From Escherichia coli (lineage in GTDB: Bacteria > Pseudomonadota > Gammaproteobacteria > Enterobacterales > Enterobacteriaceae): DNA of 64,000 bases. A model generated the notes under the pieces. It ran no database searches. It was given only the letters and a program-made list of their open reading frames with translations, and was not told where the DNA came from. The stretch lies in the NCBI RefSeq assembly GCF_965641715.1, contig NZ_OZ282453.1. One strand, 5' to 3'. Shown one piece after another: positions 37,694-41,814 of the stretch (the first letter of the stretch is position 1; each line of letters begins with the position of its first letter). The position numbers and the translations under genes are program-made.

Positions 37694-38101
37694 ATGGAAT
37701 TTAAAGATTTACCAAAAGAAATCCAGACAATTGCTGCAACGACTCTCGGTGATAGTCTGGTGAAAATTGACCCGGCATACACCAAAAAAGAAACCATCGA
37801 TAATATGGTTCGTAATGTGCGCAATGCTTTTTCTGGGCTATATGGTTCTGATAATCAAAAGCAGGAAAGCGATGTTAATGAACGGGTAATTTCTGTTTGC
37901 GTGAATGGCCATGTTCTTTCATCAATCAAAACAGAAACAGCGACAGTCTTCGATTGCCTTTGCATTGTACAGAGCCTTGTTGATGCCCTGTTTCGTTCAG
38001 TGAATTTAGAAAATGATGCAAATCTGCGAGGGCGCACAATAGCACATCCATATGCACATACTTTAGGCTCTGTGGATATCAAAGATCCCACAAATCTTTA
38101 A
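37694..38101 (+). CDS. Hypothetical protein
   Basis: 135 aa ORF in pL-type operon. Confidence 0.4.
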   Translation: MEFKDLPKEIQTIAATTLGDSLVKIDPAYTKKETIDNMVRNVRNAFSGLYGSDNQKQESDVNERVISVCVNGHVLSSIKTETATVFDCLCIVQSLVDALFRSVNLENDANLRGRTIAHPYAHTLGSVDIKDPTNL

Positions 38102-38645
38102 TGAAATAGTTAACGCGAATTGTACTTGCTCTTTCAGTTGCTTTCAGAATACGCGTTGAAACTGCTGGCGGTAATTTGGTATTCCATTTATTAAAATCAT
38201 GCCCGGGGAAGTACTCTTCGAAAATACTTTTAACTGCAGACTCGCCTATTGAAATGCTGCTTACCATGCGATTTTGATAAAGGCATTTAGCAATAAGAGT
38301 TGATTTTAACATTCACCCTCCTGAGGGTTGGTAATTAAGGAGTTCTCCACGGGTGAGGTGGAGTGCGTGCGCCGGACACGGGTGAACATCCGGCACTGAC
38401 AGTTTACTGAAAGGATATTTCCCTGAAAAGTCAGACCATAACGCGAAAGCGCACGGCGAGGTAGCTGGTTCATAGATAGCCTGTCGTTAAATTTTCGTCG
38501 ACCGTGCGCTTCCGGTTGTGGCAACCCGCGAAATGGCGCGGCGGTAAGTATGGCGGGGTTATTCCTTCCCCGTTGAGGACACCGGGTTGTCAGGTTGACC
38601 ATACGCTTAAGTGACAACCCCGCTGCAACGCCCTCTGTTATCAAT

Positions 38646-38698
38646 TTTCTGGTGACGTTTGGCGGTATCAGTTTTACTCCGTGACTGCTCTGCCGCCC
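38646..38698 (+). ncRNA. dicF: DicF small RNA (cell-division inhibitor sRNA)
   Basis: tttctggtgacgtttggcggtatcagttttactccgtgactgctctgccgccc + T-run matches DicF as recalled. Confidence 0.65.
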
Positions 38699-38872
38699 TT
38701 TTTAAAGTGAATTTTGTGATGCGGTGAATGCGGCTAAGCGCACGCGGAACAGTTAAAACCAAAAACAGTGTTATGGGTGGATTCTCTGTATCCGGCGTTA
38801 ATTGTTAACTGGTTAACGTCACCTGGAGGCACCAGGCACTGCATCACAAAATTCATTGTTGAGGACGCGATA

Positions 38873-39061
38873 ATGAAAACGTTATTACCAAACGTTAATA
38901 CGTCTGAAGGTTGTTTTGAAATTGGTGTCACTATCAGTAACCCTGTATTTACTGAAGATGCCATTAACAAGAGAAAACAAGAACGGGAGCTATTAAATAA
39001 AATATGCATTGTTTCAATGCTGGCTCGTTTACGTCTGATGCCAAAAGGATGTGCACAATGA
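38873..39061 (+). CDS. dicB: Cell division inhibitor DicB (62 aa)
   Basis: MKTLLPNVNTSEGCFEIGVT.. directly downstream of DicF; ORF track start 38768. Confidence 0.7.
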   Translation: MKTLLPNVNTSEGCFEIGVTISNPVFTEDAINKRKQERELLNKICIVSMLARLRLMPKGCAQ

Positions 39062-39249
39062 ATTCAGCATTTGCGCTTGTTCTGACAGTTTTTCTTGTTT
39101 CCGGAGAGCCAGTTGATATTGCAGTCAGTGTTCACAGGACAATGCAGGAGTGTATGACTGCAGCAACCGAACAGAAAATTCCCGGTAACTGTTACCCGGT
39201 CGATAAAGTTATTCACCAGGATAATATCGAAATCCCGGCAGGTCTTTAA
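39058..39249 (+). CDS. ydfD: YdfD-like protein (63 aa)
   Basis: MNSAFALVLTVFLVSGEPV.. follows dicB with ATGA overlap. Confidence 0.55.
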   Translation: MNSAFALVLTVFLVSGEPVDIAVSVHRTMQECMTAATEQKIPGNCYPVDKVIHQDNIEIPAGL

Positions 39250-39342
39250 AACAGTTCCGTAATAAATATCCGGTTTCATTCTTATATGCCAGCAATGGCA
39301 GGGATTTGTTCATCCTTAAATCTGTCATGAGGTTAAAACAAA

Positions 39343-41814
39343 ATGAGTAAAGTCTTTATTTGCGCCGCTATTCCTGACGAACTGGCAACAAGGGAAGAAG
39401 GCGCTGTGGCTGTAGCCACAGCCATTGAAGCTGGCGACGAACGCCGTGCTCGAGCAAAATTTCACTGGCAGTTCCTGGAACATTATCCGGCTGCTCAGGA
39501 CTGCGCTTATAAATTTATTGTCTGCGAGGATAAACCTGGCATACCCCGCCATGCCCTCGATTCATGGGATGCTGAATATATGCAGGAAAACCGCTGGGAT
39601 GAGGAGTCTGCTTCTTTTGTCCCGGTTGAGACTGAATCCGATCCGATGAACGTCACTTTTGACAAGCTGGCCCCTGAAGTACAGAACGCTGTCATGGTTA
39701 AGTTCGACACATGTGAAAACATCACCGTTGATATGGTTATTAGCGCACAGGAATTGTTGCAGGAAGACATGGCAACATTCGACGGACATATCGTTGAAGC
39801 GTTGATGAAAATGCCAGAAGTTAACGCCATGTATCCGGAGCTTAAGTTGCACGCCATTGGGTGGGTTAAGCATAAATGTATTCCTGGTGCTAAATGGCCC
39901 GAAATTCAGGCAGAGATGCGCATCTGGAAAAAACGTCGCGAAGGTGAACGCAAGGAAACCGGAAAATACACGTCTGTTGTTGATCTCGCCCGCGCCAGAG
40001 CCAATCAACAGAACACTGAAAATTCAACAGGAAAAATCAGCCCGGTCATTGCTGCCACTCATCGCGAATACAAGCAGACATGGAAAACACTGGATGACGA
40101 ACTGGCCTACGCTCTCTGGCCTGGTGATGTGGATGCCGGAAACATTGACGGCAGCATCCATCGCTGGGCAAAAAAAGAAGTTATCGACAACGACCGCGAA
40201 GACTGGAAGCGTATCTCGGCATCAATGCGCAAACAGCCTGATGCCCTTCGCTACGACCGCCAGACTATTTTTGGCCTTGTCCGTGAACGTCCGATCGACA
40301 TTCACAAAGACCCTGTGGCACTGAACAAATACATTACTGAATACCTGACTACAAAGGGCGTGTTTGAAGATGAAGGAAGAAATCAGAGCGCAACTGATAC
40401 TCTCTCGTCGCCAGTACCAGAAACTGATGCAGTGGAAACGGCAATTCCGGACAACGAAAAAACCGAATGCAAAGTGGAAGTCGAACCATCTGTAGAGCGT
40501 GAAGGGCCGTTCTACTTCCTCTTCACCGACAAGGATAGCGAAAAATACGGTCGCGCAAACAAACTTTCTGGTCTGGATAAGGCACTGGCTGCAGGGGCTA
40601 CTGAAATCACGAAAGAAGAATATTTCGCCCGCAAAAACGGTACATACTCAGGTTCACAACAAAATACTGGTGCATCTGACACGACCGCACAACCAGGGCC
40701 GGTAAAAGTTACCGCTGACGAAGTAAACAAAATTATGCAGGCAGCCAATATCAGCCAGCCTGACGCCGATGAACTGCTTGCAGTATCACGTGGTGAATTT
40801 GTTGCAGGGATTAGCGATCCGAATGATCCGAAATGGGTGAAGGGGATTGAAACCCGCGATTCTGTGAACCAGAACCAGCAAGAAACGGAACAGAACGACC
40901 AGAAAGCGGAACAAAACAGCCCAAATACGCCACAAAACGAGCCAGAAACGAAACTACCTGAACCAGTAGTGCAACAGGAAGTGGAAAAAGTCTGCACCGC
41001 CTGCGGTCAGACCGGCGGCGGCAACTGCCCTGATTGTGGTGCGGTGATGGGCGACGCAACATACCAAGAAACATTCGATGAAGAGTATCAGGTTGAAGTT
41101 CAGGAAGATGATCCGGAGGAAATGGAAGGCGCTGAACATCCACACAAGGAGAACACTGGCGGCAATCAGCATCACAATAGCGATAATGAGACTGGCGAGA
41201 CGGCAGATCACTCAATTAAGGTGAACGGTCATCACGAAATCACATCCACCAGCAGGACGTGTGACCATCTAATGATCGACCTTGAAACCATGGGAAAAAA
41301 TCCTGATGCCCCGATCATCTCAATAGGTGCAATATTTTTCGATCCGCAAACCGGAGATATGGGACCGGAATTTAGTAAGACTATCGATCTGGAAACTGCT
41401 GGCGGAGTCATTGATCGGGACACCATTAAATGGTGGCTTAAGCAATCACGCGAAGCGCAATCTGCCATTATGACCGATGAAATCCCGTTAGATGATGCAC
41501 TGTTACAATTGCGGGAATTTATCGACGAAAACTCCGGTGAATTTTTTGTTCAGGTTTGGGGAAATGGAGCCAACTTCGACAACACGATTTTGCGCCGTTC
41601 ATACGAACGGCAGGGGATCCCCTGCCCGTGGCGTTACTACAACGATCGCGATGTACGCACAATCGTTGAGCTGGGGAAAGCCATAGACTTCGATGCCAGA
41701 ACGGCTATTCCATTCGAAGGTGAGCGCCATAATGCACTTGATGACGCTCGTTACCAGGCAAAATACGTTTCAGCTATCTGGCAAAAACTGATCCCGAGTC
41801 AGGCTGATTTTTAA
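39343..41814 (+). CDS. RecE-like exonuclease with C-terminal DnaQ-type 3'-5' exonuclease domain
   Basis: 823 aa; ..[25 protein letters not shown].. RecE-like segment, CxxC..CxxC ribbon, C-terminal DLETMG..H..D. Confidence 0.5.
   Translation: [823 protein letters not shown]

What the first reader, a model, noticed from the sequence alone, without database searches (positions are those of the whole stretch)
38101..41814. Large RecE-like exonuclease with a DnaQ-type C-terminal domain and no adjacent RecT/Bet
The 823-aa ORF has a RecE-like central segment ([25 protein letters not shown]), a CxxC..CxxC ribbon and a C-terminal DEDD-type 3'-5' exonuclease-like domain (DLETMG..H..D). No ~260-aa annealase gene lies between it and cI; the interval is occupied by the dicF/dicB module. 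The recombination module appears incomplete or unconventional.
Basis: partly seen in the sequence, partly recalled or inferred. Interest (0 to 1): 0.35.

Follow-up and report, generated by a model that had tools for sequence, protein, structure and literature searches.

The report
Common prophage exonuclease, intact ydfE
This is the intact form of ydfE, a very common E. coli prophage gene that joins a RecE-related scaffold to a 3'-5' exonuclease; the lack of a partner annealing gene is normal for this phage type, so the finding is real but ordinary.

Summary
The 823-aa ORF is real, at 39343-41814 (+); the stated start, 38101, is 1.2 kb too early. Every quoted motif is present. It is not RecE. 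Only aa 474-621 (72% identical) and a weak stretch at aa 262-336 resemble RecE, and the RecE PD-(D/E)XK nuclease domain is absent. The C-terminus (aa 642-813) is a DexA/Rv2179c-type DEDDh 3'-5' exonuclease with all five catalytic residues. The first 256 aa are 99% identical to the IS2-truncated K-12 Qin pseudogene ydfE.

The full-length gene occurs in 3532 of 5426 complete E. coli genomes. It also occurs in isolated phages (Tritos, HannyBb), always directly before xis-int and without an annealase. It is under purifying selection.

No RecT, Bet, Gam or Rad52-type gene is in the window, and none is annotated in the closest complete prophage. The prophage is strongly Chi-enriched between its replication and packaging genes. 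That is the published signature of lambdoids that lack a recombinase and use host RecBCD.

So the module is a conserved alternative, not a decayed one. Related proteins carry either the YdfE-type or the RecE-type N-terminal scaffold, each fused to a RecE nuclease, this DEDDh domain, or a Rad52-like annealase. Biochemical function is untested.

The parts
39343..41814 (+). Whole gene: 823-aa intact YdfE-family exonuclease, last gene of the leftward early operon before xis-int
   Evidence: ORF list. PHROG 2082 matches over the full length. It is 97% identical to a protein cluster of 23,183 member sequences carrying Pfam PF27430, PF16473 and PF27432. PF27430 and PF27432 are named YdfE_N and YdfE_C.
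39343..39960 (+). N-terminal YdfE_N-type region (aa 1-206): an alpha/beta domain followed by a helical domain. aa 1-256 equal the K-12 ydfE pseudogene remnant.
40075..40362 (+). Helical middle domain (aa 245-340), weakly related to RecE
   Evidence: AF2 helices 247-338 with pLDDT 87-97. BLASTP gives 27% identity to Rac RecE aa 295-368, E 1e-4. It lies within the NCBIfam PRK09709 match, aa 237-625.
40504..40638 (+). Small beta/alpha domain (aa 388-432) with the conserved motif ER.GPFY...RANK
   Evidence: AF2 pLDDT 93-96. The motif is conserved in the 24-sequence alignment A1.
40762..41205 (+). Segment shared with RecE (aa 474-621): [13 protein letters not shown] motif, zinc-ribbon-like element and an acidic linker
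   Evidence: 72% identity over 148 aa to full-length Rac RecE aa 471-611, E 1e-64. Net charge is negative.
40993..41037 (+). CTAC...CPDC four-cysteine element (aa 551-565)
   Evidence: Motif positions. It is conserved in RecE.
41266..41781 (+). DEDDh 3'-5' exonuclease domain (aa 642-813), DexA/Rv2179c-like
   Evidence: Pfam PF16473 E 1.5e-67. The closest solved structure by sequence is T4 DexA, 8kel. D646, E648, D746, H796 and D801 are invariant in the alignment that includes DexA.
38647..38698 (+). Context: dicF sRNA, upstream in the same operon
   Evidence: Rfam RF00039, 76.7 bits.
38873..39249 (+). Context: dicB (38873-39061) and ydfD (39058-39249), immediately upstream
   Evidence: Pfam DicB E 1.9e-40 and DUF1482 E 2.1e-26.
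41867..43232 (+). Context: excisionase (41867-42145) and integrase (42114-43232), immediately downstream. No annealase lies in between.
   Evidence: ORFs. Pfam Exc. PGAP annotation of the 98%-identical EC416 locus.
29908..30273 (-). Context: RusA Holliday-junction resolvase, the only recognisable recombination enzyme elsewhere in the prophage
   Evidence: Pfam RusA E 7.4e-16.

Best explanation
The ORF is the intact form of ydfE, a mosaic early-operon protein of Qin/Rac-type lambdoid prophages.

Anatomy: a YdfE-type N-terminal scaffold (aa 1-432, three folded domains of unknown activity) is joined to a DexA/Rv2179c-family DEDDh domain (aa 642-813). The connection is a segment shared with RecE (aa 474-621: conserved motif, four-cysteine element, acidic linker).

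Shown: the domain composition; the intact catalytic pentad; the absence of the RecE nuclease domain; the absence of any annealase or Gam in the window; and conservation of this arrangement in isolated phages and in most E. coli genomes.

Inferred: the protein is made from the leftward early operon after repressor loss. It removes nucleotides from free 3' ends of nucleic acid, most likely DNA, because T4 DexA is its nearest solved relative. The scaffold probably acts as a targeting or assembly module, because relatives fuse the same scaffolds to a RecE 5'-3' nuclease or to a Rad52-like annealase in the same genomic slot.

The phage itself is of the recombinase-less, Chi-rich kind. It uses host RecBCD/RecA, plus its own RusA, for recombination. 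The gene is therefore an accessory DNA-end-processing enzyme, not half of a RecET pair.
For: Domain composition: Pfam Rv2179c-like E 1.5e-67. T4 DexA is the only PDB sequence relative. D646, E648, D746, H796 and D801 are invariant, DexA included.

Limited RecE relationship: similarity is confined to aa 474-621 and 262-336. PRK09709 scores 275 bits against a cutoff of 1269. Genuine RecE carries PF06630 and PF12684, which this protein lacks.

Identity with ydfE: the K-12 pseudogene is 99% identical over 256 aa.

Conserved arrangement: the same gene sits before xis-int with no annotated SSAP in phages HannyBb and Tritos. It is full-length in 3532 of 5426 E. coli genomes. dN/dS is 0.18-0.30. Divergent DEDDh-type relatives P0128, P0252 and P0122 also abut xis/int with no annealase.

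No recombinase in the window: there are no significant six-frame hits to Bet, RecT, lambda Exo, Gam, the RecE catalytic domain or the Rad52-like profile; the best was lambda Exo at E 0.005, in the chromosomal flank. Pfam and PHROG scans of early-region ORFs found no SSAP. The rest of the nearest complete prophage holds only tail genes.

Chi: 40 sites in the window against 2.2 expected; 13 lie in the 10 kb between the replication gene and the terminase. Bobay et al. report exactly this for Rec- lambdoids.

Against: No biochemical or genetic data exist for this protein. Literature searches for ydfE and for Rv2179c with phage returned nothing functional.

The Pfam family is named after an exoribonuclease, so an RNA substrate is not excluded.

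A 3'-5' exonuclease would destroy the 3' tails that RecA uses, so a pro-recombination role is not obvious.

Expression timing is inferred from gene order. No promoter or terminator call was decisive.

The left end of this particular prophage lies outside the window. It was judged from a 98%-identical relative, not from the window's own genome.
Confidence: 0.6

Rival explanations
1. It is a prophage-encoded exclusion nuclease of the 'HREX' kind. A DexA-like 3'-5' exonuclease would selectively degrade the modified (5hmC) DNA of superinfecting T-even phages, protecting the lysogen or the induced cell.
For: T4 DexA is the closest solved relative. A 2025 paper reports that an E. coli DexA homologue, EcD, degrades T4 DNA but not unmodified DNA and protects against T4 (PMC12153337). 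Its neighbours dicB and dicF are, from my own knowledge of the literature, known to affect phage susceptibility. The position equivalent to DexA W152 is aromatic, Tyr here and Trp in some relatives.
Against: EcD is a different, short protein. Its primer-derived start is MIDTET and its 3' end differs. I could not retrieve it.

By alignment, the residue said to be lost in EcD (DexA D90) is retained here as Asp. The D169 equivalent aligns to Ala.

The gene sits in a repressor-controlled early operon, not in a lysogen-expressed moron position.

The same slot holds RecE nucleases or annealases in relatives, which points to DNA metabolism of the phage itself.
Confidence: 0.15
2. It acts on RNA or on small nucleic acids rather than on genomic DNA ends. 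It could be an exoribonuclease or oligonucleotidase, like Rv2179c, that trims transcripts. Alternatively it could destroy nucleic-acid products of host defence systems, such as retron or reverse-transcriptase ssDNA.
For: The Pfam family PF16473 is named for the M. tuberculosis exoribonuclease Rv2179c, and there is a weak RNase_T match. PGAP names many copies '3'-5' exoribonuclease'. Stand-alone copies of the same domain occur in early regions of unrelated coliphages, as expected for an accessory or counter-defence gene.
Against: Rv2179c itself was not retrieved from the PDB by sequence, whereas the DNA exonuclease DexA was. Fusion partners in the same scaffold family are DNA recombination domains. 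No direct evidence exists for any RNA or defence target.
Confidence: 0.15
3. It is a decayed RecET module: a RecE gene that lost its nuclease domain and its recT partner by deletion or illegitimate recombination, leaving a non-functional chimera.
For: A 148-aa segment is 72% identical to RecE. Deletion-type chimeras do exist in the family, for example P0205, a RecE N-terminus fused to RecT. The K-12 copy is a pseudogene.
Against: The reading frame is intact and the catalytic residues are conserved. dN/dS is 0.18-0.30. The gene is present full-length in 3532 genomes and in isolated phages. The same architecture recurs at 60-76% identity in divergent lineages on different scaffolds.
Confidence: 0.04

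Closest known systems
RecE (exonuclease VIII) of the Rac prophage, partner of RecT
   Same: It holds the same position in the leftward early operon, just upstream of xis/int. It shares a 148-aa segment (72% identity) containing the [13 protein letters not shown] motif and the four-cysteine element, and has a weakly similar helical middle domain. Like RecE, it has a large N-terminal part of unknown function (PMC11611040).
   Different: It has no PD-(D/E)XK nuclease domain (PF12684), no PF06630 N-terminal domain, and no recT downstream. The predicted polarity is opposite: 3'-5' for DEDDh against 5'-3' for RecE.
Phage T4 DexA (PDB 8kel/8ken) and its E. coli homologue EcD ('HREX')
   Same: It belongs to the same DEDDh family. 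It is 27-28% identical over the domain, all five catalytic residues align, and DexA is the nearest solved structure by sequence.
   Different: DexA and EcD are stand-alone proteins of about 200-227 aa, whereas here the domain is the C-terminus of an 823-aa scaffold protein. The residues proposed for 5hmC recognition and for the dimer/tetramer switch are not clearly matched. Activity is untested.
Mycobacterium tuberculosis Rv2179c (founder of Pfam PF16473)
   Same: It matches the Pfam family across the full model, positions 2-177 of 177, E 1.5e-67.
   Different: Rv2179c is a cellular single-domain exoribonuclease. It was not found as a PDB sequence relative at E up to 1.
E. coli K-12 Qin prophage pseudogene ydfE (b1577)
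   Same: It is 99% identical over its 256 codons and has the same neighbours: ydfA, ydfB, ydfC, dicF, dicB, ydfD, ydfE, int.
   Different: The K-12 copy is truncated by IS2E after codon 256 and lacks everything from the middle domain to the exonuclease. The window carries the intact gene.
Recombinase-less, Chi-rich lambdoid phages (Bobay, Touchon and Rocha 2013)
   Same: There is no recombinase and no Gam. Chi is strongly over-represented and concentrated between the replication genes and the packaging genes.
   Different: That study classified phages by the presence of a recombinase or RecBCD inhibitor, and the passages I read do not mention this exonuclease. Abc2 was not searched for explicitly here.
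Lambda Red module (exo-bet-gam)
   Same: It occupies the analogous slot of the pL operon between the early regulators and xis-int.
   Different: None of the three Red proteins has a detectable homologue in the window.

Membership tests
RecE / exodeoxyribonuclease VIII | C-terminal PD-(D/E)XK nuclease domain (RecE residues 564-866; Pfam PF12684) | tested here: not met
   There is no PF12684 hit, while genuine RecE gives one. BLASTP shows no alignment to the RecE C-terminus. tblastn of the RecE catalytic domain against the window gives E above 2.
RecE / exodeoxyribonuclease VIII | Reaches the NCBIfam equivalog score for exonuclease VIII (PRK09709) | tested here: not met
   275 bits against a cutoff of 1269; only model positions 260-602 of 877 are matched.
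RecE / exodeoxyribonuclease VIII | recT annealase gene immediately downstream | tested here: not met
   xis starts 53 nt after the stop codon. No RecT hit appears anywhere in the window.
RecE / exodeoxyribonuclease VIII | N-terminal Exonuc_VIII domain (PF06630) | tested here: not met
   There is no hit in this protein. Rac RecE scores E 2.4e-67. Here the N-terminus is of the YdfE_N type.
DEDDh 3'-5' exonucleases, DexA/Rv2179c-like (PF16473) | Full-length match to the family profile above the gathering score | tested here: met
   227.2 bits against a cutoff of 27; model positions 2-177 of 177; aa 642-813.
DEDDh 3'-5' exonucleases, DexA/Rv2179c-like (PF16473) | Catalytic Asp-Glu-Asp-His-Asp residues in the three Exo motifs | tested here: met
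   D646 and E648 (DLET), D746 (NFDN), H796 and D801 (HNALDD). All are invariant in alignment A4, which includes T4 DexA.
DEDDh 3'-5' exonucleases, DexA/Rv2179c-like (PF16473) | Metal-dependent 3'-5' exonuclease activity | not testable with these tools
   This needs an enzyme assay.
HREX / EcD-type 5hmC-specific defence exonuclease | Equivalents of DexA W152 and D169 (5hmC recognition), and loss of D90 (tetramer contact) | tested here: inconclusive
   In the MAFFT alignment W152 aligns to Tyr (Trp in some relatives), D169 aligns to Ala with an Asp adjacent, and D90 aligns to a retained Asp. At 27% identity the alignment is not reliable in loops.
HREX / EcD-type 5hmC-specific defence exonuclease | Selective degradation of 5hmC DNA and protection against T4 | not testable with these tools
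   Only reported for EcD (PMC12153337).
YdfE family (Pfam PF27430 YdfE_N, PF27432 YdfE_C) | Matches to both family profiles and orthology with K-12 ydfE | tested here: met
   Precomputed Pfam hits on the 97%-identical cluster representative, with family names. It is 99% identical to K-12 ydfE with conserved synteny. The local Pfam copy lacks these two models, so they were not scored directly on this sequence.
Recombinase-less Chi-rich lambdoids | No SSAP/recombinase and no Gam-type inhibitor in the phage | tested here: met
   Searches cover the window. Searches cover the remainder of the closest complete prophage. Abc2, Erf and Sak4 were covered only through Pfam/PHROG scans of ORFs and PGAP annotation.
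Recombinase-less Chi-rich lambdoids | Chi over-representation concentrated between the replication origin region and the packaging genes | tested here: met
   40 Chi sites against 2.2 expected. 13 lie within 25524-35512, which is 1.3 per kb against about 0.2 per kb in E. coli (host density from PMC3784561).

The most novel reading that the evidence does not exclude
The RecE/YdfE N-terminal region may be a dedicated, exchangeable delivery module. It would bring whichever C-terminal effector it carries (5'-3' nuclease, 3'-5' nuclease or Rad52-like annealase) to one common site, such as a DNA end, the replisome or a host recombination protein. On that reading, the DEDDh version defines a third, annealase-independent type of lambdoid end-processing function, possibly one that works with or against host RecBCD at Chi-rich phage DNA. 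This would also give a testable handle on the long-unexplained N-terminal 560 residues of RecE.
Probability: 0.2. Interest if true: 0.5.

Novelty: already known. Interest (0 to 1): 0.2.

Why it matters
Taken alone, it matters little. The gene is annotated in thousands of genomes and has Pfam families. The missing annealase is typical of about half of lambdoid phages.

Three things give it some value:
- It corrects a persistent mislabel. Many records, and several PHROG families, call these proteins exonuclease VIII or simply 'exonuclease'. Some of them are 3'-5' DEDDh enzymes, and others are actually Rad52-like annealase fusions.
- It shows that the K-12 pseudogene ydfE is the stump of a widespread, selected enzyme whose function nobody has tested.
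- The domain-swapping pattern offers a route to the unexplained N-terminal part of RecE.

Tried and rejected
1. I tried to identify EcD (HAK9828821.1), the only experimentally studied E. coli DexA homologue. The supplement gave only primers. A 20-mer scan of viral contigs gave one chance hit with no matching ORF. EcD starts MIDTET, so it is not this protein. The HREX comparison therefore stayed inconclusive.

4. Literature searches for ydfE, and for Rv2179c with phage, found no functional work. A search for RecE combined with Rad52-like fusions found none either.

5. The idea that an annealase hides elsewhere in the prophage was rejected after six-frame searches, Pfam/PHROG scans and inspection of the annotated nearest relative.

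6. A DnaQ-like proofreading-subunit role was rejected. The only DnaQ signal was E 0.038 over about 40 residues, and the family's closest relatives are stand-alone phage exonucleases.

7. No att repeat was found for the island inserted in terL with a 12-nt seed.

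
Full report
THE OBSERVATION

The 823-aa ORF exists at 39343-41814 on the + strand, with a GAGG ribosome-binding site upstream. The reported start, 38101, is 1242 nt too early. That stretch holds dicF RNA (38647-38698; Rfam 76.7 bits), dicB (38873-39061) and ydfD (39058-39249).

The [13 protein letters not shown] stretch lies within aa 474-533 of the BLASTP alignment. CTAC is at aa 551 and CPDC at 562. DLET is at 646, NFDN at 744 and HNALDD at 796.

Upstream lies a cI-like repressor (36090-36728; HTH plus Peptidase_S24). Directly downstream lie excisionase (41867-42145) and integrase (42114-43232). These are followed by two small genes and then potC, so the prophage sits between potB and potC.

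WHAT THE PROTEIN IS

Pfam places aa 642-813 in PF16473 (Rv2179c-like 3'-5' exoribonuclease domain) over the full model, E 1.5e-67. The only solved structure found by sequence is phage T4 DexA, a 3'-5' DNA exonuclease (8kel/8ken). The five DEDDh catalytic residues are D646, E648, D746, H796 and D801. All are invariant in an alignment that includes DexA.

The protein is not RecE:
- The NCBIfam exonuclease VIII model scores 275 bits against a cutoff of 1269 and covers only model positions 260-602.
- BLASTP against full-length Rac RecE (1048 aa, from phage Rac-SA53) aligns only aa 474-621 (72% identity, E 1e-64) and aa 262-336 (27% identity, E 1e-4).
- Genuine RecE carries PF06630 at its N-terminus and the PD-(D/E)XK domain PF12684 at its C-terminus. 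This protein has neither.

The first 256 residues are 99% identical to the K-12 Qin pseudogene ydfE, which IS2E truncates, and the gene order is the same: ydfA, ydfB, ydfC, dicF, dicB, ydfD, ydfE, int. Close homologues carry the newer Pfam families PF27430 (YdfE_N) and PF27432 (YdfE_C) in precomputed annotation. The window therefore holds the intact form of ydfE.

An AlphaFold model of aa 1-470 was built on 24 diverse homologues and has mean pLDDT 82. It shows four confident blocks separated by disordered linkers:
- an alpha/beta domain, aa 1-100;
- a helical domain, aa 108-206;
- a second helical domain, aa 245-340;
- a small beta/alpha domain, aa 388-432.

HOW COMMON IT IS

The gene is found full-length (at least 80% coverage) in 3532 of 5426 complete E. 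coli genomes, with up to 10 places per genome. PGAP names it exonuclease, 3'-5' exonuclease or 3'-5' exoribonuclease domain-containing protein. The top protein cluster alone has 23,183 member sequences.

It is also present at 90-95% nucleotide identity in phage records deposited as complete genomes, including HannyBb, Tritos, mEp460_ev081, Evi and the PPompW phages. In HannyBb and Tritos the order is repressor, small genes (with dicF-dicB-ydfD in Tritos), exonuclease, xis, int, and no annealase is annotated in the early regions I read.

Pairwise dN/dS against three homologues is 0.18-0.30. Synonymous divergence differs up to about 60-fold between segments of the gene, which indicates intragenic mosaicism.

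IS THERE AN ANNEALASE ANYWHERE?

None was found:
- Six-frame tblastn and phmmer searches of the whole window gave no significant hit; the best was lambda Exo at E 0.005, in the chromosomal flank. The queries were lambda Bet, Exo and Gam, Rac RecT, the RecE catalytic domain and a profile of the Rad52-like domain described below.
- Pfam and PHROG scans of the early-region ORFs gave a replication initiator, a Ren-like protein, a YdaT-like protein, a DUF968/HNH protein, RusA, Q and several unknowns, but no SSAP.
- The nearest complete genome, E. coli EC416, is 98% identical across the region. Its prophage runs from potB to potC, and the part outside the window holds only tail genes and lom.

Chi (GCTGGTGG) occurs 40 times in the window against 2.2 expected from shuffles. 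Thirteen sites fall in the 10 kb between the replication gene and the terminase (25524-35512).

Bobay, Touchon and Rocha (2013) showed three things that bear on this. Only about half of 275 lambdoids encode a recombinase. Recombinase-less lambdoids strongly over-represent Chi. In those phages Chi concentrates between the origin and the packaging site (PMC3784561). This prophage is a textbook member of that class.

THE FAMILY IS MODULAR

A search of 1.84 billion 50%-identity representatives with aa 1-640 found only 237 relatives, so the non-nuclease part forms a narrow family. I classified the long relatives by local BLAST with domain probes.

Two kinds of N-terminus occur, YdfE_N-type and RecE PF06630-type. 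Each is followed by the middle domain and the shared motif, and each combines with at least three alternative C-termini:
- the RecE PD-(D/E)XK nuclease, for example P0131, P0193 and P0221 on the YdfE scaffold;
- the DEDDh domain, as in this protein and in P0122, P0137, P0141, P0252 and P0269; P0128 has a RecE-type scaffold and a DEDDh domain 99% identical to this one;
- a third domain of about 280 aa with no Pfam or PDB sequence match.

Three divergent DEDDh-type relatives also sit directly before xis/int with no annealase. Stand-alone copies of the DEDDh domain (about 190-200 aa, 55-60% identical) occur in other coliphages. tblastn finds the domain family in 1277 of 50,697 phage records, including T4 dexA.

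MECHANISM

Shown: an intact DEDDh active site on a conserved, selected, multi-domain protein in the recombination slot of a recombinase-less, Chi-rich lambdoid.

Inferred: it is expressed with the dicB operon after loss of repression. It degrades nucleic acid from free 3' ends, probably DNA given the DexA relationship. The scaffold localises or assembles it, since the same scaffolds carry other DNA-end enzymes.

It cannot perform RecET/Red-type single-strand annealing, because it has no annealase and the opposite polarity. Recombination in this phage presumably depends on host RecBCD/RecA at its many Chi sites, plus its own RusA (29908-30273).

Three rivals remain:
- An exclusion nuclease against modified phage DNA, as recently claimed for the E. 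coli DexA homologue EcD (PMC12153337). EcD is a different protein, and the diagnostic residues do not clearly match.
- An RNA or oligonucleotide target, as for Rv2179c.
- A decayed RecET remnant, which the conservation data contradict.

VERDICT

The label 'RecE-like exonuclease' is misleading. 'Incomplete module' is not supported. The gene is a known, annotated and extremely common prophage gene whose biochemical function has simply never been tested.

The modest added value lies in three points: the identification with ydfE, the fit with the Rec-/Chi-rich class, and the domain-swapping pattern, including Rad52-like fusions mislabelled as exonucleases.

Noticed in passing
window 9185-24080 (junctions near 9181/9185 and 24080): A roughly 14.9-kb island is inserted inside the host prophage's large-terminase gene. 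It carries its own integrase (22851-24107), Bro-N protein, DUF927 primase (17465-19585), capsid (14568-15734), protease, portal (12737-14038), HNH, small terminase and an intact TerL (9715-11373). It therefore resembles a capsid-forming phage-inducible island. The split TerL pieces are 24080-25270 (ATPase plus nuclease model positions 2-68) and 8459-9181 (nuclease model positions 65-283). The same arrangement is annotated in E. coli EC416 and other genomes. No att repeat was found with a 12-nt seed.
   Followed up: partly
[not shown]
   Followed up: yes
window 7956-35512, especially 25524-35512: Chi (GCTGGTGG) is extremely enriched: 40 sites in the window against 2.2 expected. There are 13 sites in the 10 kb between the replication gene and the terminase, and 15 in the 14.9-kb inserted island. 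The 20.8 kb of chromosomal flank has only 7.
   Followed up: partly
L014:5079-5999 (E. coli K-12 MG1655, Qin prophage): The K-12 pseudogene ydfE is the first 256 codons of this exonuclease gene (99% identity), cut off by IS2E. The K-12 reference therefore hides the enzyme's existence.
   Followed up: yes
window 39343-41814 compared with L002, L007 and L001: Synonymous divergence varies sharply along the gene. Against phage HannyBb, dS is 0.006 in aa 1-257 but 0.36 in aa 258-470. This indicates recombination breakpoints inside the gene at domain boundaries.
   Followed up: partly
proteins P0205 and P0269: P0205 is a RecE N-terminal scaffold fused directly to a RecT domain (Pfam RecT E 1.2e-42). 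P0269 is a DEDDh-type relative with substitutions at two catalytic positions (DLKT for DLET, SFAN for NFDN), so it is probably inactive.
   Followed up: no
window 28859-29012 (- strand): Two prophage tRNA genes lie just downstream of the antiterminator Q gene: tRNA-Arg (UCU) and a CAU-anticodon tRNA. ARAGORN calls the second one Met, but it is annotated tRNA-Ile in the close relative EC416.
   Followed up: no
window 43336-44023 (- strand): Two small genes lie between the integrase and potC, at the prophage-chromosome junction: a DUF2335 predicted membrane protein (43336-43803) and an 80-aa ORF (43781-44023). They may be cargo or a remnant of another element.
   Followed up: no
L012:2962-3561 and L013:2998-3570: Stand-alone 190-200-aa versions of the same DEDDh domain (55-60% identical) occur in an N15-like Ravinvirus prophage and in a phage whose neighbouring genes are yfdP and yfdQ. 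One record annotates its copy as 'exodeoxyribonuclease VIII'.
   Followed up: partly
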